Virus record (IMG/VR): IMGVR_UViG_2061766007_000865
DNA: 64,000 nucleotides
Origin: an uncultured virus (IMG/VR IMGVR_UViG_2061766007_000865)
Taxonomy: Duplodnaviria > Heunggongvirae > Uroviricota > Caudoviricetes
Strand: one strand, 5' to 3'
Shown here: positions 2,577 through 62,335 of the stretch, one piece after another
Layout of the letters: each line of letters starts with the position of its first letter
How positions within the stretch are numbered: the stretch's first letter is position 1
Made by a program: the position numbers and the translations under genes
The notes under the pieces: generated by a model
What the model was told of the DNA's origin: nothing
The model's input: the letters and a program-made list of their open reading frames with translations, nothing else
Database searches by the model: none

Positions 2577-3290
2577 TTATGCGAGTTTTTTCATTTTCTC
2601 TATTGCAGTCCACTTGATTTGTCTGATTCTCTCTTCTGTGAGGTCGAATTTCTTTGACAAAGTGTACTCGCTTACTTCCTCTGTGCCGAAGCCGAAGATA
2701 CCGCACACAACGGCTTTCTCGGTATCGTTCAGTCCTTGCATCAGTGACAAAAGTTTTACACGCATTTCCTCTACTTCGCTAAAGTTATCTGTGCGCATAT
2801 CAGAAGCGAAAGTGTCGAGTAAGGTTTTTTCTCCATCTTCATCGCTTGCGAGTGGTGCGTCCATGCTTGCTGCAAGGTAAGGATTTTTTCCTTTGACGAG
2901 GTGTGCGCCCATACGGATAGTACGGCTTTCATCAGTCAGAGCGATGTTGATGTACTTGCGAACTTGTTCGAGTGCCCATGTGGAAAATCGGATATTACGT
3001 GCAGTGTCAAAGGTATCAACTGCCTTGCACAAGCCGATTGCGCCACTCTGAAAAATATCCTCGAACTCCATCATTGTGCCGTAACTTGCAGCAATAGACC
3101 ACACAAGTCGAAGATTAGCGTTAACGACCTTTGTACGTGCCATCTGTGAGCCGTTCTGTGCTTGGTTGATAAGGTTCATCATCTCAGTGTGAGTTAGTGG
3201 CTTGTAGCGGTTAATCTCAACACGAAGAGCCTCGATGATGTTATTTCTTACCACATTTCCATTTGTCTTGAAATTCTTACTCTGTGCCAT
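2577..3290 (-). CDS. RNA polymerase sigma-70 family factor (RpoD/RpoS-like)
   Basis: Region 2 VNANLRLVWSIA..EDIFQSGAIGLCKAVDTFD..RFSTWA; region 3 SMDAPL; region 4 LTEERIRQI. Confidence 0.92.
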   Translation of the reverse strand: MAQSKNFKTNGNVVRNNIIEALRVEINRYKPLTHTEMMNLINQAQNGSQMARTKVVNANLRLVWSIAASYGTMMEFEDIFQSGAIGLCKAVDTFDTARNIRFSTWALEQVRKYINIALTDESRTIRMGAHLVKGKNPYLAASMDAPLASDEDGEKTLLDTFASDMRTDNFSEVEEMRVKLLSLMQGLNDTEKAVVCGIFGFGTEEVSEYTLSKKFDLTEERIRQIKWTAIEKMKKLA

Positions 3291-3337
3291 AATCTTCAAT
3301 ATTTAATTATTATTATACTGATTTCTTGTTTTCTTGG

Positions 3338-3371: not shown

Positions 3372-3725
3372 TATTTTTGCGTTTTTTAAGAATTTAGTGC
3401 ATTTTTGTTTGAAGATGGGCGAGAATTCAATGTTTGTTAACAAATCGCAAGGAATATTTCAATAGTGATGTATGGATTGTAATAATTTGTTAAAAGTCCT
3501 CTCTAAGGCTTTATTTAGTGTTTGGCTTATAGTTATTCAGCTAAGAAGTAGAAACGTCTTAGAATGGCTTAAAATGCTTTTTATGGTGATTGTCTATAAT
3601 ATAGTATTATATAGGTAGTAATCTGTATGAAGTGGGCAATTTTGGGGTAAAAATGGGAAAATCCTGTAAACGAAAGTTAAATGAGGGTTTAAATGGTTAA
3701 CGAATGTTTAAAAATGGGGTAAAAA

Positions 3726-3759
3726 TTTGGTAGTTTGGAGATAATTTCGTACCTTTGCA
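3726..3759 (+). promoter_or_regulatory. Bacteroidetes-type promoter
   Basis: TTTGG-TAGTTTGGAGATAATTTCG-TACCTTTGCA. Confidence 0.8.
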
Positions 3760-3844
3760 TTGTGATTCAGAAATCACACTTATCTTTGACATTTTGAGAC
3801 AAAAATCGGCAATATTGCCACAAAACAATTAAACTTTTAAGAAA

Positions 3845-4477
3845 ATGAAGAAGAGTAATCTTTCTGTAAGTGAGTTGTTAAATGTAGTACTAGATTTCTT
3901 CGACACCATCGAGGGATGCAAGGAGTTAGCAAGTTGCAAATTTGGCTACGGCTTCATAGCTCGTTCTACGCCAAATTTCAGAGCGCCAAAGGCAACATCA
4001 AGAGAGTGGTTTGGTCTGTTCGGCAAGGAGATGCCAGCCATTATCAAGATAACCAAAGTGACCAATGCTAAGGCATACGACTACGCAAAGGCAATCAATC
4101 GTCAGTTGGATAGACAAGGCTCTAACGCAGAGTTCAAGTCTGACGCAATGAGTGGTTACGAGTGGATAGTCCCAAACATCATCAAGAGGGCAACAGAGAG
4201 TGGTAGCTTGCAGTTGTGTGTTACTTTCAAGAACAGCGACAAGACCAAGTTTGAATCATTCTACATCGTAGCAGACAACACCCCACATTTCGCAACGAGT
4301 GCTGAATTAGACTTTATTAAGTCTCACTTGTACGAAGCCCCAAGCAAATCTGTTAAGCAGAGTGGGTTGGGTATCGCTGAAGATGACATCTTGATGGTAC
4401 GCAACTACAAGTTCTCTAACATCATTGCAATTGACAAGACACCTCGGATTGAGAAATTATGGAAAATGGTAGAGTAA
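3845..4477 (+). CDS. hypothetical phage protein
   Basis: 210-aa ORF with its own promoter and terminator. Confidence 0.8.
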   Translation: MKKSNLSVSELLNVVLDFFDTIEGCKELASCKFGYGFIARSTPNFRAPKATSREWFGLFGKEMPAIIKITKVTNAKAYDYAKAINRQLDRQGSNAEFKSDAMSGYEWIVPNIIKRATESGSLQLCVTFKNSDKTKFESFYIVADNTPHFATSAELDFIKSHLYEAPSKSVKQSGLGIAEDDILMVRNYKFSNIIAIDKTPRIEKLWKMVE

Positions 4478-4775: not shown

Positions 4776-5486
4776 ATGATTATGAAACAAGTAGCAAAAG
4801 ATTTCGCAAAGAAGTTAGGTAAGTATGAATACCAAGAGTTAGCAAATAGCTTGCTTGGTGTGAAGTTTATGCAAGCCTTTAAGGATTTGAACGGATATAA
4901 TCTTGATGAGGGTGAGGGTTTCTTCGACTGCAATTACAAAGATATATCACTGACAATCTGGCGCACCAAGTTTGGCGGTTGTGAGCTGAATCCATCGTTT
5001 GATGTATGGCACGGAGAAATACCATCTCCAATATGTGATAACGTAACAATAGACGATTAATATGGCACAGATTAGATTCCAATATCAAGTAAAGAAAACA
5101 GAGTATTTCCTTGGTAATACTCATAGGGATTCATGGGAGTTGAAAGAACTGATGCACACATGTGACCCTAACAAGTCAGATAGGGAAAACCTTGATGATG
5201 CTTTCTGCAAGGCTTGTGAGTTAGGTTGTGACCCTAACAAGCAAGTTAGATGGAATTTTATTAATTAAGAGATAATATTATGGCACAGAATGACCCTATT
5301 GGTCGTTTGGCTGAACAATTCAGCAATGACCCCAAGATTAAAGCGTGTAAGACCTATAAAGAGGTATATGACGTTATTTGTGATGTTCTCGCTGCTCACT
5401 ATCATTCACCACGTAAGTATGTTGAGCCATATGCTGATGATATTGCAGAGAGTGTATGTTTAAAACTGAATATACCGCAAGATTAG
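4776..5486 (+). CDS. operon of three small hypothetical genes (4776..5060, 5062..5268, 5280..5486)
   Basis: Tightly packed ORFs behind a + strand promoter at ~4728-4761. Confidence 0.75.
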
Positions 5487-5657: not shown

Positions 5658-6983
5658 TTATTCAGTCCAACCATTCTTGATACCAAGCACTCTGAAAACA
5701 TATATCATATCTTTGTTAAGATTGCGAGTATCCTTATCATGCGCTTTAAGGGCTTTTGCAACCGCTACAGCGAGTTCTGCATCCTCTTGTGCATCGAAGC
5801 CAAGGGAAGGGATTTTCAAGTCCTCTGTGGCTTTTGTGAAGTAGTATTTAATTTTACCATCTTCATAAGCAATTTGAACGTTAGCGTTCTTTGTATCAAC
5901 TTTTGCCATATTATAAATCTATTTTAATCCATCCAACTTTAATGCACATATCAAGCAATTCGTTTTTCGCCTCAACACCATAATAGAATTGATTAACAAG
6001 CAATTTAATGGTTTTAATATCATCATCGTCATTGCTGCTTGCCATTGCAGGTGCCCAACCACAATTACCTCCCATTTTACGGAGATTATCAATTGCTATA
6101 TTATATGCTTCATTCCTAAGAGTTCGTCTTTGTTCTAAATCCATATTATTATAAATCTATTAATTGTTCTGATGCAAAGATACGAAAAAAAATTGGAATA
6201 ACCAAAGATTATTCAACTCCTATTTTCTGTTTAAATTCGTCTTGTTGAATGGAGTATATGTAATTATAAAAATCCACCATCACATCAACTTGTTCTTTAT
6301 CCCCAAGTTGAGCAAACATTTTTTTCAGCTCTTCTATCATAATTAGAATGTTTTGTTATATTCCTTATCACATTGTGTTTGCAGAATGTCACGATTCTCC
6401 TTTGTATCAAGTAGGAAATCATCAAGGTCTTTGATGCGTAATCGAATCTTGATGCCCTCACTTTCAACGATAACCTTATCTTCCCCTTTATCAACAGAGA
6501 GTATTGTGCATTGCGTCACCACATGATGGCATTGCATATCCAAACCCAATGACACCACTTTACAAGGCAAATTAACTAATTGACTATTAATCGTAACCAT
6601 AATTAGAATGTTCTGTTATATTCCTTTGTATATTCCCCTGGTTGCCACACTCCCATACCTATTGAGACCACATTATCTTTATATCCTACATACAATGCAG
6701 AGTTAAGAAATGCATTGGCATCAAGTTTGGGGTTCTTTGGTACTAATTTAACTGCCACTTTATTATCTGGCTCTATATTTTTTTCTACTCTAAGCCATTT
6801 TGATATTTCATCCCACAGAGAGTTAAGCCACTCGTCAAATGGGGAACGTCCGTCTCTGTCTGATTCAACAATGCGGAGATATACGACTGATGTATATGGA
6901 TAATACTCAACAATATCGAATCTATCTAATGTCAACGTATCTTGCAATGAAAATCCTCTTATTTCTCTTCTTAGTCTCTCCAT
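5658..6983 (-). CDS. hypothetical genes 5658..5909, 5911..6144, 6209..6340, 6343..6600, 6603..6983
   Basis: Packed minus-strand ORFs behind promoters at 6173 and 7012. Confidence 0.7.
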
Positions 6984-7064
6984 AATCTTTTCTTTTTAAT
7001 TGTTTCTACGATGCAAAGATACGAAAAANNNNNNNNNNTTAACAATTATTTAAAGAGAATCAGA

Positions 7065-8046
7065 TTATGCCCAACATCTTGCTCTTGCCTTGGGCGACAT
7101 GTGCGCCCCCTCATTCATAACATCTACACCATCATCAGCGATTTTATTGAGCGTACCGATTACGTCTTCAATCTCTGAGATAGCCTTGAATGTTCTACCC
7201 ATAAGTGTTGCAAGTCCAAGTCTACGACCAGTGCCATTGATGCACTCATGGTTCTTGTGCTGCTGAATCACACCACTTGTATTCACACCCTTGGAAATGT
7301 TGTTGATGTCTGTCTTGATGTCATCAAGTTTCCAAGCCATCTTCTCAACATACTGATAGGCGGCTCTCTCGTTCTTCTTAGCCATCTTTTGTATATCGTC
7401 CAAGAGTCTTTCAAGTTCACGTACCTTGACACGATAGAACACGAAATGAGGNNNNNNNNNNNNNNNNNNNNNNNNNNNNNNNNNNNNNNNNNNNNNNNNN
7501 NNNNNNNNNNNNNNNNNNNNNNNNNNNNNNNNNNNNNNNNNNNNNNNNNNNNNNNNNNNNNNNNNNNNNNNNNNNNNNNNNNNNNNNNNNNNNNNNNNNN
7601 NNNNNNNNNNNNNNNNNNNNNNNNNNNNNNNNNNNNNNNNNNNNNNNNNNNNNNNNNNNNNNNNNNNNNNNNNNNNNNNNNNNNNNNNNNNNNNNNNNNN
7701 NNNNNNNNNNNNNNNNNNNNNNNNNNNNNNNNNNNNNNNNNNNNNNNNNNNNNNNNNNNNNCTCCAAGGCAATCTCTTTTTTCTCCTTGTCAGTAATCAA
7801 CTGCCACAGCATAGTACGGAGAGCCGTAGAATTGAGTTCGTTAATGTTATGAACTTCGTAGTTCTCATCAACACAGAAGATTGAGTTGCCCTTCTTGAAA
7901 AGCTCTTTAAATACACGCTTTTCAGTATGTTTGAAGATGCCAACTTCCAATGTTGTCTCCACACGTTTCTTTAGCTTCACCTTGCCATTGGCACGTGCAT
8001 CTACTTTCTCCTTTATTCGTTTTAAAGTTTCTATTTTTGAAATCAT
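7065..8046 (-). CDS. two hypothetical genes interrupted by an N gap; the missing part appears inverted at 9383..9765
   Basis: Gap-flanking peptides EIALE and PHFVFYRVKVRELERL recur at the two ends of 9383..9765. Confidence 0.65.
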
Positions 8047-8855: not shown

Positions 8856-10087
8856 TTACGATAGTATTTTACTTTTTTGTTTGATATATCTTTCTCTTCT
8901 TTTTTGTTTATTATATTTTTCTCTTCTTTTTTTATTTATTTCATCCTTATGCATCTTATAGTATTCTTTTTTTTCCTCTAATATTTTTTCTCCATGTTCT
9001 TTACGATATTTTCTTTTTTGCATTAATATCTTTTCTCTATTTTCTTCACGATATTTTTTCTGTTTATTCAATATTTCTTCCCTATGTTTTTCACGATATT
9101 TTTTTCTTTGGGTTAATATCTTTTCTCTATTTTCTTCACGATATGCTTTTTGTCTTGCTAATCTTTTCTTTTTACGTATTATTTTTTTTTCTTCTTCTGT
9201 CAATTGCACGATTGGTTTCCTATTTTTATAGTAGCGAATTTTTTCTTTTTCTTTAAGTTCTTCTTTNNNNNNNNNNNNNNNNNNNNNNNNNNNNNNNNNN
9301 NNNNNNNNNNNNNNNNNNNNNNNNNNNNNNNNNNNNNNNNNNNNNNNNNNNNNNNNNNNNNNNNNNNNNNNNNNNNNNNNNNGGAGATTGCCTTGGAACA
9401 TCTTTATGCAACAATGTCGTACCTAAAAGAACTATGATTATGGGATACTTTATCGAGATTAATGGGGTCAAAATGACCGAAAAGCAATACAAGGAGTATC
9501 GCAAACAGAAGTTGGCTGCAAAACCAAAGAAAAATAAAAAAGTCAAGAAGCAGCCAAAGGACATCAACACCAAGGAGATTAGTGCTGTGGTTTTGCAGAT
9601 TGAGAGGATGCTAAAACCACTCACAACCCTTAAGTCGTTCTCAGCCTACTATGACCATGCGTATCGCCAGTGGGGTACGATTGCAAGAGATATTCTCAAT
9701 CTAAAAGAAATCCGTCCTCATTTCGTGTTCTATCGTGTCAAGGTACGTGAACTTGAAAGACTCTTNNNNNNNNNNTGTTAAACTCGTCTTTTGTTGACCA
9801 ATTTGACCACCACATGATTTATTTAAAACTACACAACTAGTATTATTTCTATAATAATCTATCCAGTATTTTTCACGTTCAACGCCTTCTTCAATTGTTA
9901 AATCATTCTCGATTATAACCATTTTTGGATGTTCAACATGATGTTCACTACTGAATTGATAGGTTTTTTCACTTTTTCTGTGCTTGTGGGCATAGTGTCT
10001 TCCTTTTGGGTTTATTGTTCTCCCTACATAAATAGTATTAAATTCTTCCCACACATAGACATAAATGTTATCAACTCTTTTCTCCAT
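8856..10087 (-). CDS. GIY-YIG homing endonuclease with basic repeat tail (split by gaps and a misplaced contig)
   Basis: IYVYVW..IYVGRT..R..E..E..LN motif; tail of KKYREENREKIL repeats at 8856..9266. Confidence 0.75.
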
Positions 10088-17700: not shown

Positions 17701-17795
17701 TTTACCAAATAAATTTCTTCATAATGCTATTGTTATTTTGTTTTACGATGCAAAGATACGAAATTATTTTTAATTAGCCAAGGAAATTAACGTAT

Positions 17796-23215: not shown

Positions 23216-23614
23216 TTAACGTTTTTTATTTGGCTTTTTAACAACTTTTATCATTACCTTGCTTTTCTTAAAGTTCTGCTGAGATGGGTGCTGCAATATG
23301 TCAATGTAGTGGTTAAATCGCTCATTCATGGTGTCTCTCACCTCATAATAACCATGACCCTCGATGTGAATGATGCTACCCAAGGGGATGCACCAAAGCA
23401 AATCTCTGCTAACTGCTGCATACTTCAATTTGCCACTCTTGAGTTTCTTCAAGTCAATCTTTGTACCATCAGCAGTAATCAATGGTGTATCATCACACTG
23501 ACTTTTAACTGCATTGTACGTCGTTAATGTCACATGGGTAATAAACGGCTTATCCTCAGCATGGCAGATAGATGCCACCAATGCCATCATAAGGATAATA
23601 GATAATCTCTTCAT
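23216..23614 (-). CDS. secreted 3D-domain (MltA-like) protein
   Basis: Signal peptide; TTYN..TADG..AAVSRD..IPLGS.I.IEG..Y.VRDT..IDI. Confidence 0.85.
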   Translation of the reverse strand: MKRLSIILMMALVASICHAEDKPFITHVTLTTYNAVKSQCDDTPLITADGTKIDLKKLKSGKLKYAAVSRDLLWCIPLGSIIHIEGHGYYEVRDTMNERFNHYIDILQHPSQQNFKKSKVMIKVVKKPNKKR

Positions 23615-24031
23615 AGTCTTTCCTTTTTTAATCGTTAAATGTACAAACTAAGTTAAGACCACATAGTCACCAATGTTCTGTGAAATGCAGTTAGCCATCT
23701 GATAGCCGCATACCCAACCTGCCAACTTACTGCCATCTCGCAACCCTTCCCATGCTTGGTGAAGTTCGTTACATTCATCGTCAGATGACATTAGCACCAT
23801 CTTTTTGCCATTGCCCAACTCTTGTTGTTCCTTGCACATCCTTGCAAGTTCGTCAATTGTAATTCCTTCCATAATCTTTTCTTTTTAATTGTTTCTACGA
23901 TGCAAAGATACGAAAAAATAACGAACCAGCCAAGAAAAAAATGTTAAAAAAACACAATTGGGACATGTTTCACAACATATCCCAATGCAACTAAAAAACC
24001 TAAAATTCAAACTTATGGAAAAACGAGCATT

Positions 24032-24840
24032 TTGTGCCCTATACTGAATCGAATCAATCTTTCACACAATCATTGAACGCTTTAATTGTGCAACGTATGT
24101 CAGTCTTGAGAGGGCATTACTATAGATTATCCCAATCTTAACCACATCATAGGGCGTGTTAAAAATGTGAGAGGGAGATTGCAGCCATTTTCTATTGGGG
24201 CGGCACTTCCTACCCCTCTCACTCTGTTTGGGGCGGTGGTGGTGCGAACTCTGTTTGTTGCATCCCAAATGCCCCATGTTAAAATGAACGATTTATAACC
24301 TTTTGGCACGTCCCTCAGATATGTGCGCACGTTTTGGGGGGCACTGGCTTAACTTCCATCGTTCTAATAAGTCACCTACGCTTCTAACGGACAGCCATGA
24401 ATCGCAGCCTTTTAGCAATTTGGCAGCGTATAATCGGCAAATAAGCACGCCCAAGGAAAATCGGCACTCTCTCGTATTTGGTGCGGATTGGGGGCAAAAC
24501 ATAAGCGTTAGGGGGCTTAAAGTTTTTGTTTCTCGATTATGTCTTATTACTTTTGGTCGAATGACCTTGCCAAGCCATGCACATTGACATGGGTAGAGGC
24601 GGTAATAAATTCTTACTTAGGGTCGGTCTCTAATCATTACTCCTATTTAAATTGCAAACTATATTATAAGAATTCAAATATATACTAATATGCTAAAACT
24701 AATCAGCCACTTAGGGCGGAGGTCTCTCCATGCTACTTCTCGCTTTGATTGGTTAGACATTGATTGAAAGCGGCAATCGGCTTGGGGGAGGTGCGGACTA
24801 TCTCCTGACCTAACTACCCCCTTTGAGCCACGATTAAGCC
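24032..24840 (-). ncRNA. candidate large structured RNA or ncRNA cluster with tRNA-like 3' domain
   Basis: ~800 nt with raised GC, many nested stems and no convincing ORF. Confidence 0.6.
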
Positions 24841-24841
24841 G

Positions 24842-24955
24842 TTATTTCATTTTCTTAATCTCGTAGAGTTGAGTGTCCTCTATTTTCTTCGTGGGGATTG
24901 CAACCACTCGTTTGTTTCTTACTGCTTTGTCCAAGCGTCTCTGTCCACTACCCAT
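24842..24955 (-). CDS. 37-aa basic peptide ahead of the RNA region
   Basis: MGSGQRRLDKAVRNKRVVAIPTKKIEDTQLYEIKKMK directly behind promoter 24999. Confidence 0.5.
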   Translation of the reverse strand: MGSGQRRLDKAVRNKRVVAIPTKKIEDTQLYEIKKMK

Positions 24956-25066
24956 TTTGCTTTACTTTATTAATTAATGTTTTGTTATCGTTTCACGATG
25001 CAAAGATACGAAGATTTTCTGTAACTACCAAATTTTTTTGTAGGAATTTGCACTCATTAACGTTTG

Positions 25067-28000
25067 TTAGCAGTATTCCTTCTGATAGGCTAAGAAATCC
25101 TCTACTTCTTCCGCCTCACGGATGTCTGCTTCGAGTGCATCATCATCAATATCTTCGTTCTCGTCACGATAGTCTTCGAGGGTCTTGCCATCGAGTGTAC
25201 AAATGACATTATCGTCCTCTGTGACTTCCAAACCACCAAGGGTCTCTCTTACGATGTAACCCAACTCTGTTTCGTATGTGCCCATAACTACTTCACTTCT
25301 TCTTTCTTCTGTCCAAAGTGAGTGACGATGTGTGGAATTGCAACCAAAACACCAATCACAACCACAAGGGACACAATCTGTAATACTGAAATATCCATAA
25401 CTCTTTTGCTTTAACGATGTAAAGATACGAAATTAATTTGGATTGACCAAGAAAAATCTCACTTTTNNNNNNNNNNTTCTTAATTCTTAAGCAATGTAAA
25501 GATACGAAATTAATTTGGATTGACCAAGAAAAATCTCACTTTTTTTTCAGAAAAGTTGGTGGGGATTATTTCACCCCACCCAACTTATATTACTCCGCAG
25601 CAGCCATAGCCATCTCCATTTCCTCAGCATTGGCAGTTTTGGCGATGCCAAGGGTCTCGACAGACATCTTAGCGTTCTTCACGTCAATGTTTGGATTGGA
25701 TGGGGATGCAGCGAGTGCAGCCTTGAAATCCTTTGTCTTGGTGCTATACTTGTCGTAGAAGCGACACAGAGCATGAGCCACGTTAGGATTGCGGAACAAC
25801 TTCTCGTTCTTGTGGTACTTCGCAAAGAGTTTCAGCCATGAGAAAATGGTCTCAGCCTTTTTCTCGTCAAACTTAGTGTAGCCACTAAGGAAAGTAGGTA
25901 CACGATGGGCGTTCTTACCCACTGCAAAGTATACGAGGTATGTAATGGGATAGTTGCCATGCTTGTTCGACAACTCAGTAAGGTGCTTACATACGGCAAT
26001 GTGGAGGTTGCGCTTGTCTCTATTCTGAGGTAACGTGAACCACTTGGGCATACCTACACCCTTGCCACTACCACTCTCTGCAATAGCACGTACACGTGCA
26101 TCAATCGTTGTTTTCTTTGTCTCTTTTGCCATTTTCTTAATCTCCTATAAATTTAATGTTGTTAATAATGTTGTTTTCTTTAACGATGCAAAGATACGAA
26201 CTTTTTTTGAATTGACCAAATTTTATCTGGCTTTTTTAACCTGCTTTAACAATTATCTCCTTTTCAAGTATCTTTATATCCTCATAATAATCATCGCATG
26301 GGTCATTGATATAGAAAGATGTATCACTTTCCTCAATCTCAAACTCTGCAATATCATCGTCAGTGTTATTAACCTTACCAAAATGGTAGCTCTCATTCAA
26401 GATAAGTTCCTTTTCATCTGATAGAACTTTCTTTGCAATCTCCAACGTCTTGCATGGTGTTGGATTTATAATCAACTCACCATCAACATTGCTTTCTTGT
26501 AATACGATATAAACCTTATCCATAGTTTTTTAACTTTGTATTACTTCAATCGTTGTAAAATCCTTTGCTTCATAGACGTTATCTGCATCGTCACCATCTT
26601 CAAAACTACCACTATCCAACCACTCTGAAAGTGTGATATTGGTAAGATGCTTACCATCGAAATATGCCCAAAGTTCATAGGTCTTTTCCTCTATTGAGAA
26701 GAAAGCGAGATAGCCGCCACTACCCTCATGGTCGAAATAATGTCTATCTACCTTAATATCAAGCACTTTCTTTGTCTTTAAGTGTTCTTCACCCTCGCCA
26801 AGTATCACCTCAGTATCAATAGCGATGGTTGCATATACTCCACAAGGGGCAATAGTGTCTTTTGGTCTTTTATCATAGTCATGGATAAGAATATCCTCAA
26901 CTACTTTCTTGACCATTGTAGAGCCGTAGAATGGGTTTTTACTACCATCTCTATTCTCTATCATTTCAACTCTTAACTTCGCTTCTACCATAGTTTAAAA
27001 ACCAAATGAGAACACATAATAGTCATCTAAATCTTCAAAAGGCATTTCGGCTTCAATAGCTTCCTCTGCACTTGCATAAGAGTTTGCATCAATCTTAACG
27101 ATTGTGTAGCTATCATCGTAGTCCTCTTCGGCTACCCATTCCTCTAAATCCTTTTCGGTGAGGTTTTCTACTTGCTCCTTGCGATAATGTTGCTTATCGA
27201 GTAGGAATACTTTTTTGTCTCTATCCATAACTCTTACTTATTAAGATTCTTATAAATGAACATTGCCACATCATAGACTTCATTCCAATCAATGCGGTCA
27301 ATACCTAACTCGTCACAATCTTCTGTCTGCAAGTAGATAGCATCGTTCTCATTGAGAAAGATTCCCTCAACCATTGAGAAAGCATTACTATCGTACTCTG
27401 GGTGTCTGCCACCATCATAAGTGACACTAATCATGTTTTCACATTCTGTTATATCAACTGAATTACCATGCTTCTTTAAGTAATTCTTGATAAATCTTTC
27501 ACTCTCTTTTCTGATTTCCTCTTGGGTATCACGAATTGATAAAAATAATGAAATTGCTTTTTTCATATCTCTAATCCTTTAATTGTTATTTCTTGGTGCA
27601 AAGGTACGAAATCTTTTTGAATTGGCAAAACAAATTGTGGAAAATCTCTGGGATTTTAACCCTTTTTAACGAAAAATGGGGTCAATGACCATAAAAGTCA
27701 TCAACCCCTCATGTTAAAAGTTTATTTTTAAAACCAAGTAGTTAATATATGTCCTCCCTAGCTATTATCTGTGATTCACCTTGCCCATAGATAACAAACT
27801 CTCTATTATCAGCATCTTCTGCCATGTTGGTAGCTTTTTCTAGGGCTTCTCCCTCATCATTTGCCATCACTTCTACCTCATAAGATGCATTGAAATTACA
27901 TCGTATTCTAAACTTTACCATAATTATGCAACCTCCTTAGATTCAGGGAAAATCTCAACACCATCGCATTTCAATGTGTTGAATGTGATTAAACAATGAA

Positions 28001-31950: not shown

Positions 31951-32354
31951 AAATCCAATCTCCTTTTCTTTTAAATTGTTAATAACTGATTTAATTGTTT
32001 CACGATGCAAAGATACGAAATTATTTTCAATCTACCAAATAAAAAACAAATTATTTTCAATTTATAATAATATTTTTCTGAATTATATACAAAAAAAGGG
32101 ATAATCAACTTAGATTACCCCAATATTCTGAAATATGTTATCTTTGATACATTTCTGCCGTTCTTTTTAGTTCTGTGCAAGTGGAGTTGTAAACTCTCTG
32201 TTTCTTGCCGAAATCAGACTTTATCCTATCTTTGATTTCTTTGATAGTCCAATACTTACAACGAAGACCACCATTGTCTTCGTAATATTTGATAATATCT
32301 TTCTGTTTCATACCTTATTGTTTAAATGTTAAATCTTCAATTCATTAATGATTT

Positions 32355-42878: not shown

Positions 42879-44844
42879 TCATTCCTCCCTAAGTTTCCTT
42901 AAGTTTTGCCTTAAATTATCTAATCTAAGCTCTGTTTCATAGTCTCTTTCTGAACAGATAGCAATAGCATCATCAAGTGCCTCCATCTGTTCATCACTCG
43001 GCTTCCATTGTGACTGAAGTCGTAGCTTTTTGTAGAGAGATTCAAGCCATTCTATANNNNNNNNNNNNNNNNNNNNNNNNNNCATCTTTTTCGAAATACT
43101 TTTTTGCACTTTTAAGATAGAAAATAGAATCTCTTATACTTCTTTCGTCTTCTTCACTCCACTCTTGCTCTGGCTGTACTCTTTCTTTGAGGAATTTGAG
43201 CCTATTTTTGAGCCATCCAGCAGTTTCATTATAACCATATAGTTCACAAACATTAATTGCATCAATTAGCCAATTTTCATCCTCTTCACTCCAAGCATTG
43301 TTTTGTATAGTATTTATAAGTTCTTGTATATGAGCATCAACATATTCTATTATATCTCCGTTGGTTGGTACACCTTCTTTAATGTACCTAAATTTTTGAA
43401 ATAATTCTAATAGTTTGTCTTTAAATGCAGATGACTCAATATTATCAGCATGCTTTTGTTCACCTTGCTCAAAGCATTTGGCAACAGCAATATCCATAGC
43501 CTCTTGTGGAGTTAAGTCATCAATAGATTTTTGCTCAATGGCGCAAGATACATAAGTCTTAAAATCTTCCCACCAAGAATTTTTATCACAATCAGTAAGC
43601 TTATATNNNNNNNNNNNNNNNNNTCTAACGCTTTAATGAACATTTCTTTAGCATTATTATCGTTTGTAAATACTCTACCTTTTACATGACCATCTACAAG
43701 AATTTCAACGCCGCCATCTCTTGCACACATACCCCAAGTATGTCCATTGTATTCAAATGATGTACCACTATAAGGATTAGGCTTCTGCTCTGTTTCTCTT
43801 AGTTCTCCATTCTCGCAATTAATACAACCCTTACGATTAATACATCCATCACAAGGATTAGGCTTCTGCTCACCTTGCTTTTCTTTAAGTTCACTATCCT
43901 TTGCACTAAATGGAATTTCGACATCAAGAGCAGGCTTCTTCTCGCCTTGCTTTTTAAGCCAATCTATACACTCTACGGCATTCTCATAACCTTGTTTTGC
44001 GAAATCTTTAAGAAAAGCAATAGTAGTCTTTCTTAATCTTTCATCATCTTTATTGCTCATACTATTTATATGTTTTTTTTAAAACTTTTTGTGTATATTT
44101 AACCTTATATTCTCCAAGTTCTTTTATGAGTTTGTCTTTCTCACCTTGTTTTTCAAGCCAAGCAAGAATATTATCAGTTGGTATTCCATTAAATGTTTCA
44201 GCCCCAATAGTGCCTACTTCTTTATAACCTTTGAAATATCCGACCAATACCTTCCTTATCTTCTCGTCCTCGCTTTCATTAAGCTTAGGTTCAGCATTAT
44301 CAACAGGTTTCTGTTCATTAAAACATTTTTCAACGGCAATATCCATTGCTTCTTGCGGAGTTAGGTTATCTATTGATTTTTGCTTGCCTTGCTTTTCAAT
44401 ATACTTACAGTAATATCTGTGCAGTCTATCCCACATGGCATTATGGAAAGCGTTTTCTATATCTTCACACTCTCCATTTGACACACACATCTTACCTTCG
44501 TATTGATGTGCATCAAGATAGTTAATAAATGACATGGCACAGCTTGTAAGTACACCTTTAGCAAATCTGTTTTGTTCTTCTTCACTTAACTTTGCTGGTG
44601 TACCTTGCTTTTCGAGCCAAGCACGAACCTCTCTATTACTAAATTCATTGAGTAATTGACCATCGGAATTCCACCTGAAATAATCAGTTAGTGCTTTCCT
44701 TATCCTATCATCCTCACTTTCTTTAAATTCAGGGAAGATTTCATCAATAACTCTATTAGCAAAAGTAGGTATTTTATCAACGTTTGGGGTATTGCGCCAT
44801 TTCTCANNNNNNNNNNNNNNNNNNNNNNNNNNNNNNNNNNNCAT
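42879..44844 (-). CDS. repeat-modular protein (ESED.RIRK...WLEKQG and WSEEDE units), fragmented by gaps and one frameshift
   Basis: Four ORF-track pieces share motifs and join across N gaps; SID(N/D)LTPQEAMDIAV occurs twice. Confidence 0.65.
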
Positions 44845-45009
44845 AATTCAAAACTTTATTTCTTTGTAATTTTCTTCTCCGCACCTTGGGCAAACATAAG
44901 ACCATCCCATTGATTCTTTATCTTCCCACTGATACAAATCTTCAACTTTACTATCGTGCAAATGAGCACCACAATGCTGACATATAAAATATCCCATAAT
45001 CACAACATT

Positions 45010-54943: not shown

Positions 54944-55549
54944 TTATATATACAGTTTATTGCTTGAAATTATATTAGCGACCTCCTCAGTTACATAGGG
55001 GTACGGATTCATGCCCTTTGACACCATGTTTCTAACCATAGTTGATGAAACGTCCATCTTCTGTATTTCAAGCAAAGTTACTTTCATGTTTGTGCATACA
55101 GCCTCACATTGTACCTTGAATGGTATCGCATCATTAGCAATGGTGCTATCTAGTCCTCTTGTAATCTCTATAAACCCAATCTTATCCTTGATATGGGTTT
55201 CAAAGTTCTTCCAATTAGGAATGCTGTCAATGGTGTCAGTTCCAGCAATGAGGAATATCTCGTCATTTGGATATGTCTTAATTGCCTCATTGATAGGGAT
55301 ATATGAATAAACTGGAGGCTCATATTTCTCCTCAAACCTACACACTTCACACTTATCGCCCAATGGTCTAATGGCTTCCTCAATCATTTNNNNNNNNNNN
55401 NNNNNNGGAGCCTCTTTCTTCCAAGGGTTATGTTTTGCCACAACAAATAGAACCTTATCACAAAGTCCACTTGCCATGACATTTGATGCCATTGCGACAT
55501 GACCAATTGTGATTGGGTTAAAAGAACCAAGTAATATTCCTATCTTCAT
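54944..55549 (-). CDS. nadD: nicotinate/nicotinamide-nucleotide adenylyltransferase
   Basis: GSFNPITIGH, NPWK, G.D....I.NW, VSSTMVR, V..II....LY. Confidence 0.9.
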   Translation of the reverse strand: MKIGILLGSFNPITIGHVAMASNVMASGLCDKVLFVVAKHNPWKKEAXXXXXXXMIEEAIRPLGDKCEVCRFEEKYEPPVYSYIPINEAIKTYPNDEIFLIAGTDTIDSIPNWKNFETHIKDKIGFIEITRGLDSTIANDAIPFKVQCEAVCTNMKVTLLEIQKMDVSSTMVRNMVSKGMNPYPYVTEEVANIISSNKLYI

Positions 55550-58500
55550 GGTTGACATTGTTTACATTGTTTACGGTACTCACACCATAATCTGTTAATA
55601 TGACTCCAATACCGTTGCCCTTGTTTCGTTTTTGACCATATGAATCCACCACCCATAGATACATTTTGTAGTATTACTAGAGGGGGTAGTCCCTTGTAAC
55701 TTGGTTGCTCAGCAAGAACATTGTCTATAAATTGTACCAAACAGTGATGCTGCTTGAGAAACTTATAAAATCTCCTAGTACTTAAACTTATTTCCATTCT
55801 CATTCTTCATCGTCGCAGATTTTGGCAAGATTCTCATCATATTCTTGCAATATAAGTGGATAATAGCAATCGTAGTAATATTGGATTTCATCTAAATCAT
55901 AATCCTTAATCATCTGACGATAGATACACTTGGCTTCGAGATTCATCACCTTCTGAACATGAACCTCTGGAACCTTGCCATCACACCATTCTTCTGCTTT
56001 CTTGTTGAATTGACTGATATACCCAAGATACTCGGCAAAGATAATGAATAGGGGGGTTGGTATTACTGACACTAGGTGTTTCTCCTTGTCGCCATATTCC
56101 TCTAAATCCTTGACATTACCTCCCCACTTCTCTTCCGTAGGTGTCTCCACTTTTGTCTCTTTATTAGTGTCCATTATTATGTAATTTTATGATTCTACCA
56201 ACAATCTACATCGGTTATATCTTTTTCCTTACCGCAATAAGGACATTTGATAGTTACCGAAGTGCCAATCCCAGTTGGAGTAAAAATATATTTGTAGGGA
56301 GCAGACTGCTTAAACGTGTTGTTCACACGTGGTTTAGGTCTACATTTCTTATGCTTCTCTATAAAAGCCTTTGCATCCTTTTCTTCTTGTTCACTTAGTG
56401 TATAACTTGCCATTATCCGTAATATATTTCTGGACATAGAACATTCTGTTCATTGTTCTGTTCGTTAGTTTCTACCTCAACAGTGAAGACTGTTGAGGCT
56501 AGAACGAAATCGTCTTCATTCTGAGCCATTTCCTTTTTACTTTTATTCTATAGTTATTTTAAAATTTCTCTTGCATTTACTTACTATTCCCTTATATCTA
56601 AGGTCTTTTGCAGCATAATTTCTTGAACCAATGCCTTTTGTTGGTTTAGTCTTGCTGTGAGTTAGGGATATCCCCATCTTCTTTAACCCTTTTCTGATAC
56701 AAACAATAATGTTATTATACAACATATTTTCTTTTTTTTTGCAAAGATACCAAATTTTCTTGAAAAAATCAAATTCTCTGTCTTAAAAAAAGTTAATATT
56801 TGCGTTTATTCACAATAAACCTAGCAAGAAGGCTAGTTTTATGCATCTTCTGTGGCTCACTATTATTGGCATTGTCAACTCTCTTGAAATGGATATAATC
56901 ACCGTCGAATGCAAGAATCATAATGTCCATTCTCCCCAATGTAATCACTGGAGGTATATGATACACCTTATTGACCTTAAGGTTTGTGGGATGAATATGT
57001 CCCTTTATCTTATTAAGTTCATCCTTGCAACTCGCTATTGTACGTTTCTCTGCCATGATATTTAAAATTCGTGAAGTTCTGTGATAAATACTGCATCAAG
57101 GTCTGACGGATATATATTACAAGTAGATGAGTATTCACTTTTAGTGGACTCATTAATCTCGTGACAAATGCATATGAAATCTGTTTTGCTTGACACCCTA
57201 ACGACCTTCCTTGATTGGGACATTATCTTTGGAATAACATATGTTTTACCCACCTCTATGTTATCCCATTCAATGCGTCTTGGAAGTTCCTTCATCAATT
57301 CCCTTTTCTCACTATAAGTGAGAAGACTCACATGCTTACTAATCTTTGATGTGCTTGATGTCGATACTTGATTGGGACTTGGCAAAGCCATACATGCACT
57401 AGGTTTGTTCAATGGGCACCAGTTAGGACAAACAATATCTTGAGCTACAGAAAGGTTAAAGCCAATCCTCCTATTCCTTGTCTTTCCCCACGCATCATCA
57501 TAGGGAACAGCACGGCAAGAGGCATCAAAACGATTTGTTTCACTGTGGTCAAACGTTTTCTCTAAGTTGGTACATAAATTACATATTTTACAGTTCATTA
57601 TTTCTTCTTTTTTATTTGGTTGAACTTTATCTATAAACAAATCCTCGTCAAATATACAAGTCTCACAATCTTTGCAGTCCTTACCAGAGCAAGGATGTCC
57701 TTGTACTAATTCAGTCATCATCGTCATCATCATAACTTGCAATGGATGCCAATTGCTCTCGATGGGATTCTAGCCATTTAATGAATTCATCTTGCGATTG
57801 CTGTGGACTCATTCTAAGTGGCGTTCTGTCCCCATGTCTAGGAGGGGGTGGCATCGTTATACCCATCTGTTCGGTATTCATGGGCATGGCTTCTGCTGTT
57901 TTATCTACGAAATTATCGCCGAATAAGCTTTTACAAACCTCAGTAAATACGTCTTCACCAAGTTTTTCGAGTATACTAAAGTCTGTATCGACTGCATATT
58001 CAATGCAAGAGTGTATTAAGCCATTGACCATGTTCATTATCATCATCTGGCACTTGCTGTTGTTTTCTATCTTAAAATTGCCATGCATGCCATGCATCAT
58101 TGCCAAGAGTTCATCCAATGATTTGGCGTTCATATAAAATGCATCAATCTTTGGCAATCTGCTGATTTTACCATATCCGTATAATAGCTTTGATGCAATT
58201 ACATGGTATAGGTCTCTATTTCTATTAGGCAAGTTTACACTGCATCTGAATATGTTATACATGTTGTTCAGTTTGACGTATTTCAAAAATGTCCTCAGTA
58301 TCAGAAACTCTAGTTCATATCCCTTCTTTGTCTCCATCATCTGTATAGTGTTTTTTAGTTTATTCAATCTTGAAATTGTCTTTATCGTCAAATTTATGGC
58401 AACTTGGGCAATATAAATATTCTCTCCATTTTGTTTTNNNNNNNNNNNNNNNNNNNNNNNNAGTCCTTGCATCTTAATAGAAATCTCTTATCAAAACTAT

Positions 58501-61648: not shown

Positions 61649-62335
61649 TTACTCAAGTTCATCCCACATATCTTTAGGAAATCTACTATGAAGCTGTTCT
61701 AGCCACCAAATTGTCTTCACCTTACACATTGGTAGCCTCTGTCCTTTCATGAGCGTAGAACGCTTAATAACCACTCCTTCTTTGATGTTTGGATATTGGC
61801 ATCCATCCTTAGTCCAATTGTTATTCTCGATAGAGTTAACAAAATCCATATCGAGTTTGCCGATATATATCACCTCTGGAGTCAATACCCTATCATCCTT
61901 ACAGAAAAGGTCAACAAACATATTTGGCTCAATATATCCCTTCTTCTTGAGAAACACATCAATCAATGCAAGACGAAGAGTATCTCCCTCTTGATGGAAT
62001 CCAGCAAAGGAATTATCTCCGTACCATTCAAAGAACAATGTAATTTCCTCAACACCATTGAAAATACCTTTCTTACCGCTATTGTTTACAATTATCTCCC
62101 TCAATACATCTTCATAATGTTCTTTGAAGTATCTAACTGCATCGCCAAAGCCCTCAGTATTTTCATCCACATATTGATGACGTGAACCAAACATGGTGAA
62201 TTGCTTTTTTGTTGCTCCCTTTGGAGTATATTTAACTCTAAAGTTCTGCCCATCTAGCTTATTGAAAGCAACGACTTGCTCACCACGAAGTGTACCATCA
62301 TCGAAAAACCTAGGTATGCTTCCGTATTCTTTCAT
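61649..62335 (-). CDS. RNA ligase-like nucleotidyltransferase
   Basis: Motif I KLDGQN, III FFEWYG, IIIa LIDV, IV EGVV, V KVK. Confidence 0.8.
   Translation of the reverse strand: MKEYGSIPRFFDDGTLRGEQVVAFNKLDGQNFRVKYTPKGATKKQFTMFGSRHQYVDENTEGFGDAVRYFKEHYEDVLREIIVNNSGKKGIFNGVEEITLFFEWYGDNSFAGFHQEGDTLRLALIDVFLKKKGYIEPNMFVDLFCKDDRVLTPEVIYIGKLDMDFVNSIENNNWTKDGCQYPNIKEGVVIKRSTLMKGQRLPMCKVKTIWWLEQLHSRFPKDMWDELE

What the first reader, a model, noticed from the sequence alone, without database searches (positions are those of the whole stretch)
24156..24840. About 700 nt of GC-enriched, multi-stem non-coding sequence behind its own promoter
Seen (minus strand): closing stems AATCG(T)GGCT/AGCCGATT, GAATTCTTA/TAAGAATTT, TTATTAC/GTAATAA (enclosing CCATG/CATGG and GGTC/GACC), CTAACG/CGTTAG, GAACGAT/ATCGTTC, GTGAGAGGG/CCCTCTCAC, plus a repeated GAGACC..CCCTAAGT. 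The short overlapping ORFs here do not resemble neighbouring genes. Inference: one large ncRNA in the size class of phage GOLLD/ROOL RNAs, or a chain of smaller RNAs. I cannot assign it to a known family by eye.
Basis: partly seen in the sequence, partly recalled or inferred. Interest (0 to 1): 0.75.

Follow-up and report, generated by a model that had tools for sequence, protein, structure and literature searches.

The report
New large structured jumbo-phage RNA
A giant phage from the cow rumen encodes a previously undescribed folded RNA of about 400 bases, preceded by two tiny proline-ending reading frames and followed by a tRNA-like element, that probably pairs with copies of itself.

Summary
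Window 24030-24850 (minus strand) is non-coding, GC-enriched and lies behind an early-type promoter of a ~410 kb rumen jumbo phage.

It is a chain of parts:
- a long hairpin (M1) after a 37-aa gene
- two six-codon ORFs (MERPPP*, MIRDRP*) conserved at peptide level
- a ~410-nt structured RNA
- a 3' hairpin with a U-tract
- a tRNA-like element, where relatives carry real tRNAs

The large RNA belongs to a family with at least seven sequence subtypes. I found 30 true matches, one per locus. All share an invariant 8-nt palindrome, GUGCGCAC, displayed in a hairpin loop.

Covariation is strong: helix H7 is 97% paired in 28 distinct sequences, all 7 pairs change on both sides, and 0 of 500 shuffles reach the score. 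No Rfam family matches, including ROOL, GOLLD, group I, tmRNA and RNase P.

Contigs of four rumen RNA libraries hold the RNA. It is absent from 185,579 prokaryote genomes by motif scan, and from one of five complete relatives, so it is an accessory, cassette-swapped element.

Best reading: a new class of large phage RNA released from a tRNA-linked precursor, probably self-associating through a kissing loop. Its function is unknown.

The parts
24995..25011 (-). Promoter P1, a copy of the phage's repeated early-type promoter motif
   Evidence: Exact copy of a 17-mer found 29 times (up to 3 mismatches) in the window against 0.19 expected. Its likeness to the Bacteroidota -7 element TAnnTTTG is recalled, not tested.
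24842..24955 (-). Small basic protein gene (37 aa here, 57-59 aa in relatives), first gene of the unit
   Evidence: The ORF is conserved in all 6 loci compared; the window copy has an internal in-frame deletion. No Pfam or PHROG family.
24766..24846 (-). Hairpin M1: a long hairpin starting at the stop codon of the small gene, followed by a short U-rich run
   Evidence: Closing stem AACGGC/GCCGYU. Inner stems covary: GGCU/AGCC to GGGG/CCCC, and GGGGG/CCCCC to GGUGG/CCACC. MFE z -1.41. An RNA-library contig runs across it, 24516-24942.
24711..24731 (-). Mini-ORF 1: ATG GAG AGA CCT CCG CCC TAA = MERPPP*
   Evidence: 19 of 19 distinct contexts encode MERPPP plus 0-1 residue and a stop. The 4 nucleotide variants are all synonymous third-position changes. 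In relatives a second promoter, P2, lies about 40 nt upstream.
24617..24637 (-). Mini-ORF 2: ATG ATT AGA GAC CGA CCC TAA = MIRDRP*. It is the constant 5' leader of the cargo RNA.
   Evidence: 31 of 31 distinct contexts have an in-frame ATG and a stop 0-3 codons after Pro. Upstream insertions come in multiples of three. Core variants keep R-D-(R/K)-P: CGA to CGC, CCC to CCT, and GACCGA to GATAAG.
24230..24616 (-). Large structured RNA, subtype I. With mini-ORF 2 it spans about 410 nt.
   Evidence: 80-92% identical in relatives whose neighbouring protein is only 63-94% identical, with frameshifting indels. Shares a core with other subtypes. RNA-library contigs 24189-24584 and 24232-24545 match exactly.
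24520..24526 (-). AAAACUU motif, candidate 5' strand of a pseudoknot with AAGUU (24351-24355)
   Evidence: Nearly invariant across subtypes. At least 5 contiguous pairs in 25 of 27 rows; in 3 of the 27 rows (L125, L133, L170) my motif finder picked a wrong or no site. Both strands hardly vary, so there is no real covariation test. Inferred.
24286..24364 (-). Core helix H7 (24358-24364 with 24286-24292), enclosing AAGUU, the palindrome hairpin and the junction GGUUAUAA (24293-24300)
   Evidence: 97.4% of cells paired in 28 distinct sequences. 7 of 7 pairs change on both sides. Partners slid by 1-3 columns pair in only 39-53% of cells. 0 of 500 shuffles reach the covariation score.
24311..24341 (-). 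Hairpin displaying the 8-nt palindrome GUGCGCAC (24323-24330) in a 15-17 nt loop
   Evidence: The palindrome is invariant in all 30 true model matches and occurs once in the window. The closing stem covaries through at least 8 different sequences. The self-duplex is predicted at -13.7 kcal/mol.
24162..24222 (-). Hairpin D plus U-tract, the 3' hairpin placed just before the tRNA-like element
   Evidence: MFE z -3.71. Found in 14 loci in covarying forms (GUGAGGUGG/CCACCUCAC 7, GUGAGAGGG/CCCUCUCAC 3, and near variants). Followed within 0-7 nt of the U-tract by a tRNA start (6), element B (7) or another tRNA-like start (1).
24035..24155 (-). Element B: tRNA-like, with a 7-bp acceptor-type closing stem GCCCUAU/AUAGGGC plus A, a T-arm-like UUCGAU hairpin and a long interior
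   Evidence: 91-99% identical in 7 loci and 76% in L170. It sits where relatives have real tRNAs. Not called by ARAGORN or by the Rfam tRNA model. MFE z 0.22. The tRNA-like reading is by eye.
23947..23986 (-). Intrinsic-terminator-like hairpin with T-run, ending the unit. The next promoter copy is at 23913..23897.
   Evidence: 13-pair stem followed by TGTGTTTTTT. Conserved in all relatives. Promoter copy.

Best explanation
The flagged stretch is the untranslated body of one early transcription unit of a ~410 kb rumen jumbo phage, probably of Bacteroidota.

Its centre is a previously undescribed structured RNA of about 410 nt (24637..24230, minus strand). The proposed mechanism has five steps.

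1. Transcription starts at P1. In most relatives it also starts at a second promoter, P2, after hairpin M1. M1 acts as a leaky terminator or processing hairpin behind the small basic-protein gene.

2. Ribosomes translate two six-codon ORFs (MERPPP*, MIRDRP*). Both end in proline followed by a stop. By recalled knowledge these contexts slow elongation and termination. A ribosome therefore dwells on the 5' leader and covers the conserved GACCGACCC. This may shield the 5' end or time the folding of the RNA behind it.

3. The RNA folds into a multi-helix body closed by helix H7, probably with an AACUU/AAGUU pseudoknot. It exposes an invariant self-complementary octamer, GUGCGCAC, in a hairpin loop. 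Two molecules pair loop to loop. This gives a homodimer or, with further contacts, a larger assembly, as in OLE, ROOL and GOLLD.

4. The 3' end is set by hairpin D with its U-tract, and by RNase P cutting at the 5' end of the downstream tRNA or tRNA-like element B.

5. The RNA is an accessory cargo. Its subtypes are exchanged as cassettes between closely related phages, and it can be lost.

What is shown: the non-coding nature, the family, H7 and the palindrome hairpin by covariation, the coding-type constraint on the mini-ORFs, the tRNA linkage, and presence in RNA libraries.

What is inferred: ribosome dwelling, the pseudoknot, self-association, the processing, and any role in the infection.
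For: Non-coding and conserved:
- Relatives differ by 1- and 2-base indels.
- The RNA is 80-93% identical where the neighbouring protein is 63% identical.

The family:
- A model built from subtype I alone finds the other subtypes at the expected places (E 0.002-0.75).
- The second model gives 30 true matches in 54 sources, one per locus and one in the window.
- It gives one match in each of 4 of 5 complete phage records.

Structure:
- Covariation score 0.913 against 0.276 in shuffles (0 of 500). H7 is 97.4% paired and 7 of 7 pairs change on both sides.
- On a MAFFT alignment not fitted to the structure, the palindrome stem shows compensatory changes in 4 of 8 predicted pairs. Two more helices show 2 compensatory pairs out of 10 predicted pairs.
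- The palindrome is invariant in 30 of 30 matches while its stem varies. The self-duplex is predicted at -13.7 kcal/mol.

Mini-ORFs:
- 19 of 19 and 31 of 31 contexts keep frame, start and stop. Only synonymous changes or R-to-K occur.

tRNA linkage:
- 14 of 14 D hairpins are followed by a tRNA or a tRNA-like start.
- In subtype III a tRNA follows the RNA directly.

RNA libraries:
- Contigs of 4 metatranscriptomic runs (4 studies, two of which share contigs) hold 24189-24942. They include exact pieces of 396 and 314 nt.

Precedent:
- ROOL and GOLLD are phage RNAs near tRNA islands. They assemble through kissing loops, some symmetric and palindromic (passages of bioRxiv 10.1101/2024.12.08.627333).
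Against: - No experiment or read-level data show a discrete RNA, its ends or its strand. The RNA evidence is assembled contigs, and DNA carry-over cannot be excluded.
- Self-association is inferred from a palindrome only. A strictly invariant octamer could instead be a protein-binding or target-pairing site, since a kissing loop would tolerate other palindromes.
- Folded on its own, the palindrome hairpin is not unusually stable (z 0.95).
- Alignments A8 and A9 are fitted to the model structure, which inflates pairing counts.
- The outer pairs of the palindrome stem are poorly aligned (74% paired).
- The pseudoknot has no covariation test.
- Within subtype I, RNAalifold prefers other long-range helices that never vary, so the global fold is unsettled.
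- The RNA is dispensable: it is absent in 1 of 5 complete relatives and in loci L123 and L155.
- Ribosome pausing on the mini-ORFs rests on recalled knowledge from other bacteria.
Confidence: 0.55

Rival explanations
1. The whole stretch is a cis-acting leader. Two proline-ending leader ORFs form tandem attenuators that gate read-through into the downstream tRNA or tRNA-like gene. The large folded part is regulatory scaffolding and not a trans-acting RNA.
For: - The leader ORFs are the constant part of the locus. In L123 and L155, mini-ORF 2 is followed almost directly by hairpin D or a tRNA, with no large RNA.
- Other loci (L153, L167, L169) carry unrelated cargo behind the same mini-ORF.
- Hairpin D with its U-tract looks like a terminator placed just before the tRNA.
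- In subtype III, the mini-ORF 2 codons GACCGA are predicted to pair with UCGGUC next to H7.
- Tandem proline-codon leader ORFs are known from the Salmonella mgtCBR leader (recalled).
- EF-P-dependent coupling is described in the abstract of PMC5021804 (search listing).
Against: - The window keeps the full 410-nt RNA but has lost the real tRNA.
- A 410-nt body with an invariant loop and more than 7 subtypes is far more than an attenuator needs.
- The GACCGA/UCGGUC pairing is not available in subtypes I and II.
- The RNA body is what the RNA-library contigs hold at the highest depth figures.
- This reading is compatible with the main one for the leader part.
Confidence: 0.18
2. It is a group-I-like ribozyme or a degenerate group I intron. 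On this reading H7 is P7, the palindrome hairpin is P8, GGUUAUAG is J8/7 and AACUU/AAGUU is P3.
For: - The order of elements matches the P3-P7-P3'-P8-J8/7-P7' topology: 5' strand AACUU, central domain, H7 5' strand, AAGUU, long hairpin, conserved 7-8 nt junction, H7 3' strand.
- The junction resembles the UAUAG of the group I 'S' element (recalled).
- Phage setting next to tRNAs.
Against: - No group I model of Rfam 15 matches at E<=10 in subtypes I, II or III.
- No pair of H7 is invariant, whereas P7 holds a nearly invariant G-C guanosine-binding pair (recalled). The most constant H7 pair is C-G/U-G.
- There are no exons. The upstream mini-ORF ends in a stop, and downstream lies a complete tRNA or a hairpin.
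- No contig shows a joint that removes the RNA (table 5). The single joint listed there is a variant with 69 other letters in between.
Confidence: 0.06
3. It is protein-coding after all, through small proteins or a recoded frame, or it is a DNA-level element such as an origin, a packaging site or a recombination site.
For: - Minus frame 2 is relatively open: 9 stops in 1.1 kb, with ORFs of 69 and 71 aa.
- The locus is a recombination hot spot with mosaic modules.
- The octamer is palindromic, as protein-binding DNA sites often are.
Against: - Frameshifting indels run through both ORFs in relatives.
- The frame is interrupted by TAA, TAG and TGA, so no single stop reassignment opens it.
- The translations are cysteine- and arginine-rich and match nothing.
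- Pairing is strand-specific, with many G-U pairs, and stems covary around an unchanged loop.
- Cumulative GC skew shows no turn here.
- The sequence is held in RNA libraries.
Confidence: 0.04

Closest known systems
ROOL RNA (Rfam RF03087; the accession is recalled)
   Same: A large, many-helix RNA of unknown function, encoded by phages, next to tRNA genes and first seen in rumen metagenomes. It assembles through kissing loops, one of them a symmetric conserved loop (passages of bioRxiv 10.1101/2024.12.08.627333).
   Different: No sequence or structure match at E<=10. About 410 nt instead of about 580 (the ROOL length is recalled). This RNA has translated mini-ORF leaders, many sequence subtypes exchanged as cassettes, and is restricted to one group of ~300-410 kb phages.
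GOLLD RNA (Rfam RF01998; the accession is recalled)
   Same: A phage or prophage RNA near tRNAs, with a conserved 3' part and a variable 5' part. tRNAs are sometimes embedded. It has symmetric palindromic kissing loops, and ribosomes were pulled down with it.
   Different: No model match. This RNA is half the size. Here the variable 5' parts are whole alternative modules.
OLE RNA dimer and the HIV-1 dimerisation initiation site
   Same: A self-complementary stretch flanked by unpaired purines in a hairpin loop drives homodimerisation (OLE; HIV-1 DIS: recalled).
   Different: Here the palindrome is 8 nt and strictly invariant. Dimerisation is untested.
Proline-codon leader ORFs (Salmonella mgtP/mgtL; TnaC, which ends in Arg-Pro-stop); all recalled
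   Same: Very short leader ORFs whose proline codons, or a proline before the stop, make ribosome transit slow. They couple translation to the fate of the downstream RNA.
   Different: Here they precede a non-coding RNA and a tRNA and not a protein gene. There are two of them, of 6-8 codons. The stop codon usually lies in the loop of a CCC/GGG mini-hairpin.
Stable RNAs C and D of the phage T4 tRNA cluster, and tRNA-like 3'-end processing as in MALAT1-mascRNA (both recalled)
   Same: Non-tRNA stable RNAs co-transcribed with phage tRNAs, with a tRNA-like structure used to set an RNA's 3' end through RNase P.
   Different: No sequence relation was tested. The RNA here is far larger than the T4 species.
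Group I intron core
   Same: The same order of a pseudoknot strand, a covarying helix, a long hairpin and a conserved junction.
   Different: It fails the model search and lacks the invariant guanosine-binding pair, exons and any splicing signal.

Membership tests
ROOL RNA | Match to the Rfam covariance model | tested here: not met
   No match at gathering score nor at E<=10 on subtypes I, III and II.
ROOL RNA | Phage-encoded, near tRNA genes | tested here: met
   Phage records of 295-413 kb. A tRNA or tRNA-like element lies directly downstream.
ROOL RNA | Homo-oligomeric assembly | not testable with these tools
   Only an exposed invariant palindrome suggests it.
GOLLD RNA | Match to the Rfam covariance model | tested here: not met
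Group I intron | Match to Rfam group I models | tested here: not met
Group I intron | Invariant G-C guanosine-binding pair in P7 (feature recalled) | tested here: not met
   All 7 pairs of H7 vary. The most constant is C-G/U-G (18 and 9 of 28).
Group I intron | Flanking exons joined after excision | tested here: inconclusive
   No exon-like continuity. No excision joint in RNA contigs, but contigs cannot show absence.
tmRNA | tRNA-like domain plus tag reading frame, as recognised by ARAGORN or Rfam | tested here: not met
   ARAGORN finds only two tRNAs elsewhere in the window. No Rfam tmRNA match.
RNase P RNA | Match to Rfam RNase P models | tested here: not met
Leader-peptide attenuator | Short leader ORF conserved at the peptide level | tested here: met
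   19 of 19 and 31 of 31 contexts; only synonymous or conservative changes.
Leader-peptide attenuator | Mutually exclusive terminator and antiterminator structures overlapping the ORF | tested here: inconclusive
   A GACCGA/UCGGUC long-range helix is predicted in subtype III only. My cross-subtype test crashed before giving numbers.
Leader-peptide attenuator | A regulated gene downstream | tested here: inconclusive
   Relatives have a tRNA downstream. The window has only the tRNA-like element B.
tRNA (for element B) | Cloverleaf recognised by ARAGORN or the Rfam tRNA model | tested here: not met
   Not called. Only an acceptor-type stem and a T-arm-like hairpin are seen, by eye.

The most novel reading that the evidence does not exclude
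A ribosome-tethered, self-assembling phage RNA.

- Two proline-ending mini-ORFs capture and hold host ribosomes on the 5' end of the RNA.
- The RNA dimerises or cages through an invariant palindromic kissing loop.
- It is cut free from a tRNA-like handle by RNase P.
- It serves as an RNA-level weapon or decoy in a conflict over host translation and tRNAs. The same window encodes an RNA ligase and a phosphoesterase of the kind used for tRNA repair.
- Its subtypes are swapped as cassettes between phages under diversifying pressure.

This would be a third kind of phage RNA particle after ROOL and GOLLD, and the first with a built-in translational gate.
Probability: 0.15. Interest if true: 0.9.

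Novelty: new variant of a known kind. Interest (0 to 1): 0.72.

Why it matters
Large, intricately folded bacterial and phage RNAs with no known function are few: OLE, GOLLD, ROOL, raiA and HEARO. Each has proved structurally remarkable. This would add a new class with unusually good comparative material: at least seven divergent subtypes that keep one core.

Three of its features make function testable:
- An invariant palindromic loop, which gives a direct dimerisation test by mutation and compensation.
- Two mini-ORFs under coding constraint at the 5' end, which link it to the ribosome.
- An obligatory tRNA or tRNA-like 3' neighbour, which links it to processing.

It also shows that in giant rumen phages a non-coding locus can behave like an accessory-gene hot spot. 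Whole RNA modules are gained, lost and exchanged between near-identical genomes.

Tried and rejected
Searches that found nothing or were unavailable:
- blastn of the region against 50,697 deposited phage records: no match.
- No whole genome is held for the window.
- The earlier-findings index returned nothing, by place and by sequence.
- A self-comparison of the window found no second copy.
- Motif scan of 185,579 prokaryote genomes: 0 matches. This covers that exact gapped motif only.
- Pfam and PHROGs on the small gene and 7 neighbours: nothing informative. One neighbour matches an unknown-function PHROG.

Tests that ruled something out or misled:
- Alternative stop-codon readings do not open the region.
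- My first motif scan (GAGACC..CCCTAAGT) gave 108 stretches. Only the 3 known relatives were real by blastn, and a second hit in one phage (L083) was chance.
- Model R2 run with filters off on L153, L167 and L169 gave no match at the cargo position. These loci therefore carry other RNAs. My idea that L153 shows a palindrome-to-palindrome change (ACGCGU) rests on an unconfirmed homology.
- MAFFT alignments of all subtypes put helix strands out of register, so H7 had to be counted on model-fitted alignments.
- The cognate versus non-cognate test of the central closing helix crashed before its summary. The partial rows show only 4-7 contiguous pairs.

RNA libraries:
- The four runs gave no cover on 23500-24188 and 25084-25450, the flanking genes.
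- Contig breaks at 24545 and 24637 coincide with mosaic junctions and carry loose ends, so they are not RNA ends.

Literature:
- Searches found no description of such an RNA.
- The IMG/VR survey of candidate structured RNAs (PMC10690425) reports motifs of 29-151 nt only (passages).
- Its supplements held none of five contig numbers. Three files, among them the alignments and models, could not be searched. A sub-element may therefore be listed there.
Full report
SETTING

The window is part of a very large phage genome.
- It holds 29 copies (up to 3 mismatches) of one 17-base promoter-like motif, against 0.19 expected. 26 of them are on the minus strand.
- It holds many small ORFs and two tRNA genes.
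- It encodes a sigma-70-like protein, a cytidylyltransferase-like protein, a metallophosphoesterase, an RNA ligase, a DUF932 protein and a GP88-like protein.
- Its closest relatives are IMG/VR records of 295-413 kb, rated complete.
- All 20 public runs that hold the stretch are bovine gut or rumen metagenomes.
- The motif's TTTG core resembles the Bacteroidota promoter element. That is recalled, not tested.

THE OBSERVATION

Composition and coding:
- The region is GC-enriched and folds modestly better than shuffles (z -2.07).
- It has no credible ORF. The 69- and 71-aa frames are broken by 1- and 2-base indels in relatives.
- All three kinds of stop codon interrupt every minus frame.

It lies inside one transcription unit on the minus strand:
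- promoter 25011..24995
- a 37-aa basic-protein gene at 24955..24842 (57-59 aa in relatives)
- about 800 nt of non-coding sequence
- a terminator-like hairpin at 23986..23957
- the next promoter copy at 23913..23897

A MOSAIC LOCUS

Anchoring on the upstream 72-aa protein gave 5 viral loci and 49 metagenome loci. Comparison shows conserved non-coding modules that are present, absent or replaced from phage to phage.

Phages whose 72-aa protein is 94-97% identical to the window's can lack the large RNA (L006/L127, L123) or carry another subtype (L124/L125). The locus is therefore a recombination hot spot.

THE MINI-ORFS

The repeated GAGACC..CCC motif marks two tiny ORFs.

Mini-ORF 1 (24731..24711):
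- It reads MERPPP plus 0-1 residue in 19 of 19 distinct contexts.
- Its four nucleotide variants differ only at third codon positions.

Mini-ORF 2 (24637..24617):
- It has an in-frame ATG and a stop 0-3 codons after the proline in 31 of 31 contexts.
- Upstream length differences come in multiples of three.
- The core variants keep R-D-(R/K)-P, including one three-base change from GACCGA to GATAAG.

In most cases the stop codon lies in the loop of a short CCC/GGG hairpin.

Two loci have other mini-ORFs at this place: MKKKYY* in L171 and MKTKCRSRP* in L133 (read by eye).

This is coding-type constraint. Yet the 12-base core is almost invariant at the nucleotide level, so an RNA-level role is likely too.

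THE LARGE RNA

Subtypes and shared motifs:
- Behind mini-ORF 2, 24 of 31 distinct sequences share GUGCGCAC 265-370 nt downstream.
- Alignment shows at least five sequence subtypes with common invariant motifs: AAAACUU, AAGUU, AACGUGCGCACA and GGUUAUAG.
- The covariance-model searches added subtypes VI and VII.

Model searches:
- A model built from subtype I alone (7 sequences, 13 pairs) found the other subtypes at the expected places, though weakly (E 0.002-0.75).
- The second-round model gave 31 matches. 30 are true. One is a false positive carried over from training.
- There is one match per locus and one in the window, at 24273-24379 minus.
- There is one copy in each of 4 of 5 complete phage records.

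Covariation:
- On 28 distinct sequences helix H7 is 97.4% paired, with changes on both sides at all 7 pairs.
- The overall covariation score is 0.913 against 0.276 in shuffles (0 of 500).
- Sliding the partner by 1-3 columns drops pairing from 87% to 39-53% (similar).
- These alignments are fitted to the structure.
- Independent of that, RNAalifold on a plain MAFFT alignment recovers the palindrome hairpin with 4 of 8 pairs compensatory.
- It also recovers two further helices in the central domain, with 2 compensatory pairs out of 10 predicted pairs.

What remains unsettled:
- The global fold. Subtype-I-only folding prefers invariant long-range helices.
- The AACUU/AAGUU pseudoknot is consistent in 25 of 27 rows but untestable by covariation.

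THE PALINDROME

GUGCGCAC sits in a 15-17 nt loop. The closing stem takes at least eight different sequences, while the octamer never changes (30 of 30). It occurs once in the 64 kb window.

It cannot pair within itself. Two copies would form an 8-bp duplex, predicted at -13.7 kcal/mol.

OLE, ROOL and GOLLD use such symmetric loops to form dimers and cages. I therefore propose loop-loop self-association. Strict invariance would also fit a protein or target site.

THE 3' SIDE

- Hairpin D (24222..24167, z -3.71) covaries between two main forms.
- In 14 of 14 loci it is followed by a U-tract and then, within a few bases, by a tRNA (6), the tRNA-like element B (7) or another tRNA-like start (1).
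- In subtype III the RNA's own terminal hairpin and U-tract abut a tRNA.
- The window has lost the true tRNA that L006, L007 and L008 carry after B.
- I infer that RNase P cleavage at the tRNA or tRNA-like 5' end releases the RNA.

EXPRESSION

Contigs of four metatranscriptomic runs hold 24189-24942. The runs come from four studies, and two of them share contigs, so I count at least three as independent.
- There are exact pieces of 396 nt (24189-24584) and 314 nt (24232-24545).
- One 427-nt contig joins the small gene, M1, both mini-ORFs and the start of the RNA.
- These are contigs. They show presence in RNA libraries, not ends, strand or level.

KNOWN FAMILIES

- Rfam 15 gives no match at gathering score.
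- It gives only chance-level matches at E<=10 for subtypes I, III and II.
- ARAGORN finds no tmRNA.
- The element order resembles the group I core, but the model search fails. H7 also has no invariant pair, and there are no exons and no excision joints.

DISTRIBUTION

- A gapped motif scan found 11 viral loci, 5 of them in the phage records already held.
- It found none in 185,579 prokaryote genomes.

VERDICT

This is a real, conserved and expressed structured RNA of a new family, embedded in a tRNA-linked, mini-ORF-led cassette locus. It works most like the large phage RNAs ROOL and GOLLD but is not a member of either. Its function is unknown. The mechanism I commit to is given under Best explanation, at 0.55.

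Noticed in passing
L121:4664-4738 (also in L153, L160, L163): The tRNA that follows the RNA in subtype III has an unusual anticodon loop. ARAGORN reports a four-base anticodon (ccaa) and assigns no amino acid. It may be a frameshift-type or decoy tRNA.
   Followed up: no
L006:~4985-5075 and L008:~5750-5840: A tRNA-like sequence with a D-arm and T-arm of normal look but a long insert in the anticodon region. Neither ARAGORN nor Rfam calls it. The window has a clean deletion of it.
   Followed up: partly
L153:~3900-4360; L167:~3700-4050; L169:~820-1200: Behind the same mini-ORF 2 these loci carry other non-coding cargo of 350-450 nt that the core model does not match. L153 has a C-rich stem with a loop holding the palindrome ACGCGU. 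These may be further RNA classes.
   Followed up: partly
L007:5354-5561, L008:5400-5612, L119:4906-5106: Module C is a ~200-nt non-coding block, 83-100% identical between phages. It is inserted between the large RNA and hairpin D, is absent from the window, and contains another CCCUAAGUGGGG hairpin.
   Followed up: no
window 61649-62335, 58497-59180, 54944-55558 (minus): An RNA ligase, a calcineurin-like phosphoesterase and a cytidylyltransferase-like protein (Pfam). The first two are the kind of pair phages use to repair cleaved tRNAs (recalled). This fits a genome invested in tRNA matters.
   Followed up: partly
window, 29 sites (e.g. 7024..7008, 17761..17745, 26199..26183, 32018..32002): A 17-base promoter-like motif, TCGTATCTTTGCATCGT, recurs before most small genes. 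26 of the 29 copies are on the minus strand, which implies one large block of co-regulated, probably early, genes. A phage sigma-70-like gene lies at 2577-3299.
   Followed up: partly
window 24842-24955 (minus): The small basic protein co-transcribed with the RNA is shortened to 37 aa here by an in-frame deletion of the middle part that relatives keep (57-59 aa). It is a candidate RNA-binding partner with no known family.
   Followed up: partly
L171 and L133 (upstream of their core RNA): At the place of mini-ORF 2, L171 has MKKKYY* and L133 has MKTKCRSRP*. A tiny basic ORF is kept even where the RDRP core is not.
   Followed up: no
window 7100-7700, 8900-9300, 43600-44850, 55400, 58450 and others: Several stretches of the window are masked as N. 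They appear as runs of X in ORF translations.
   Followed up: no
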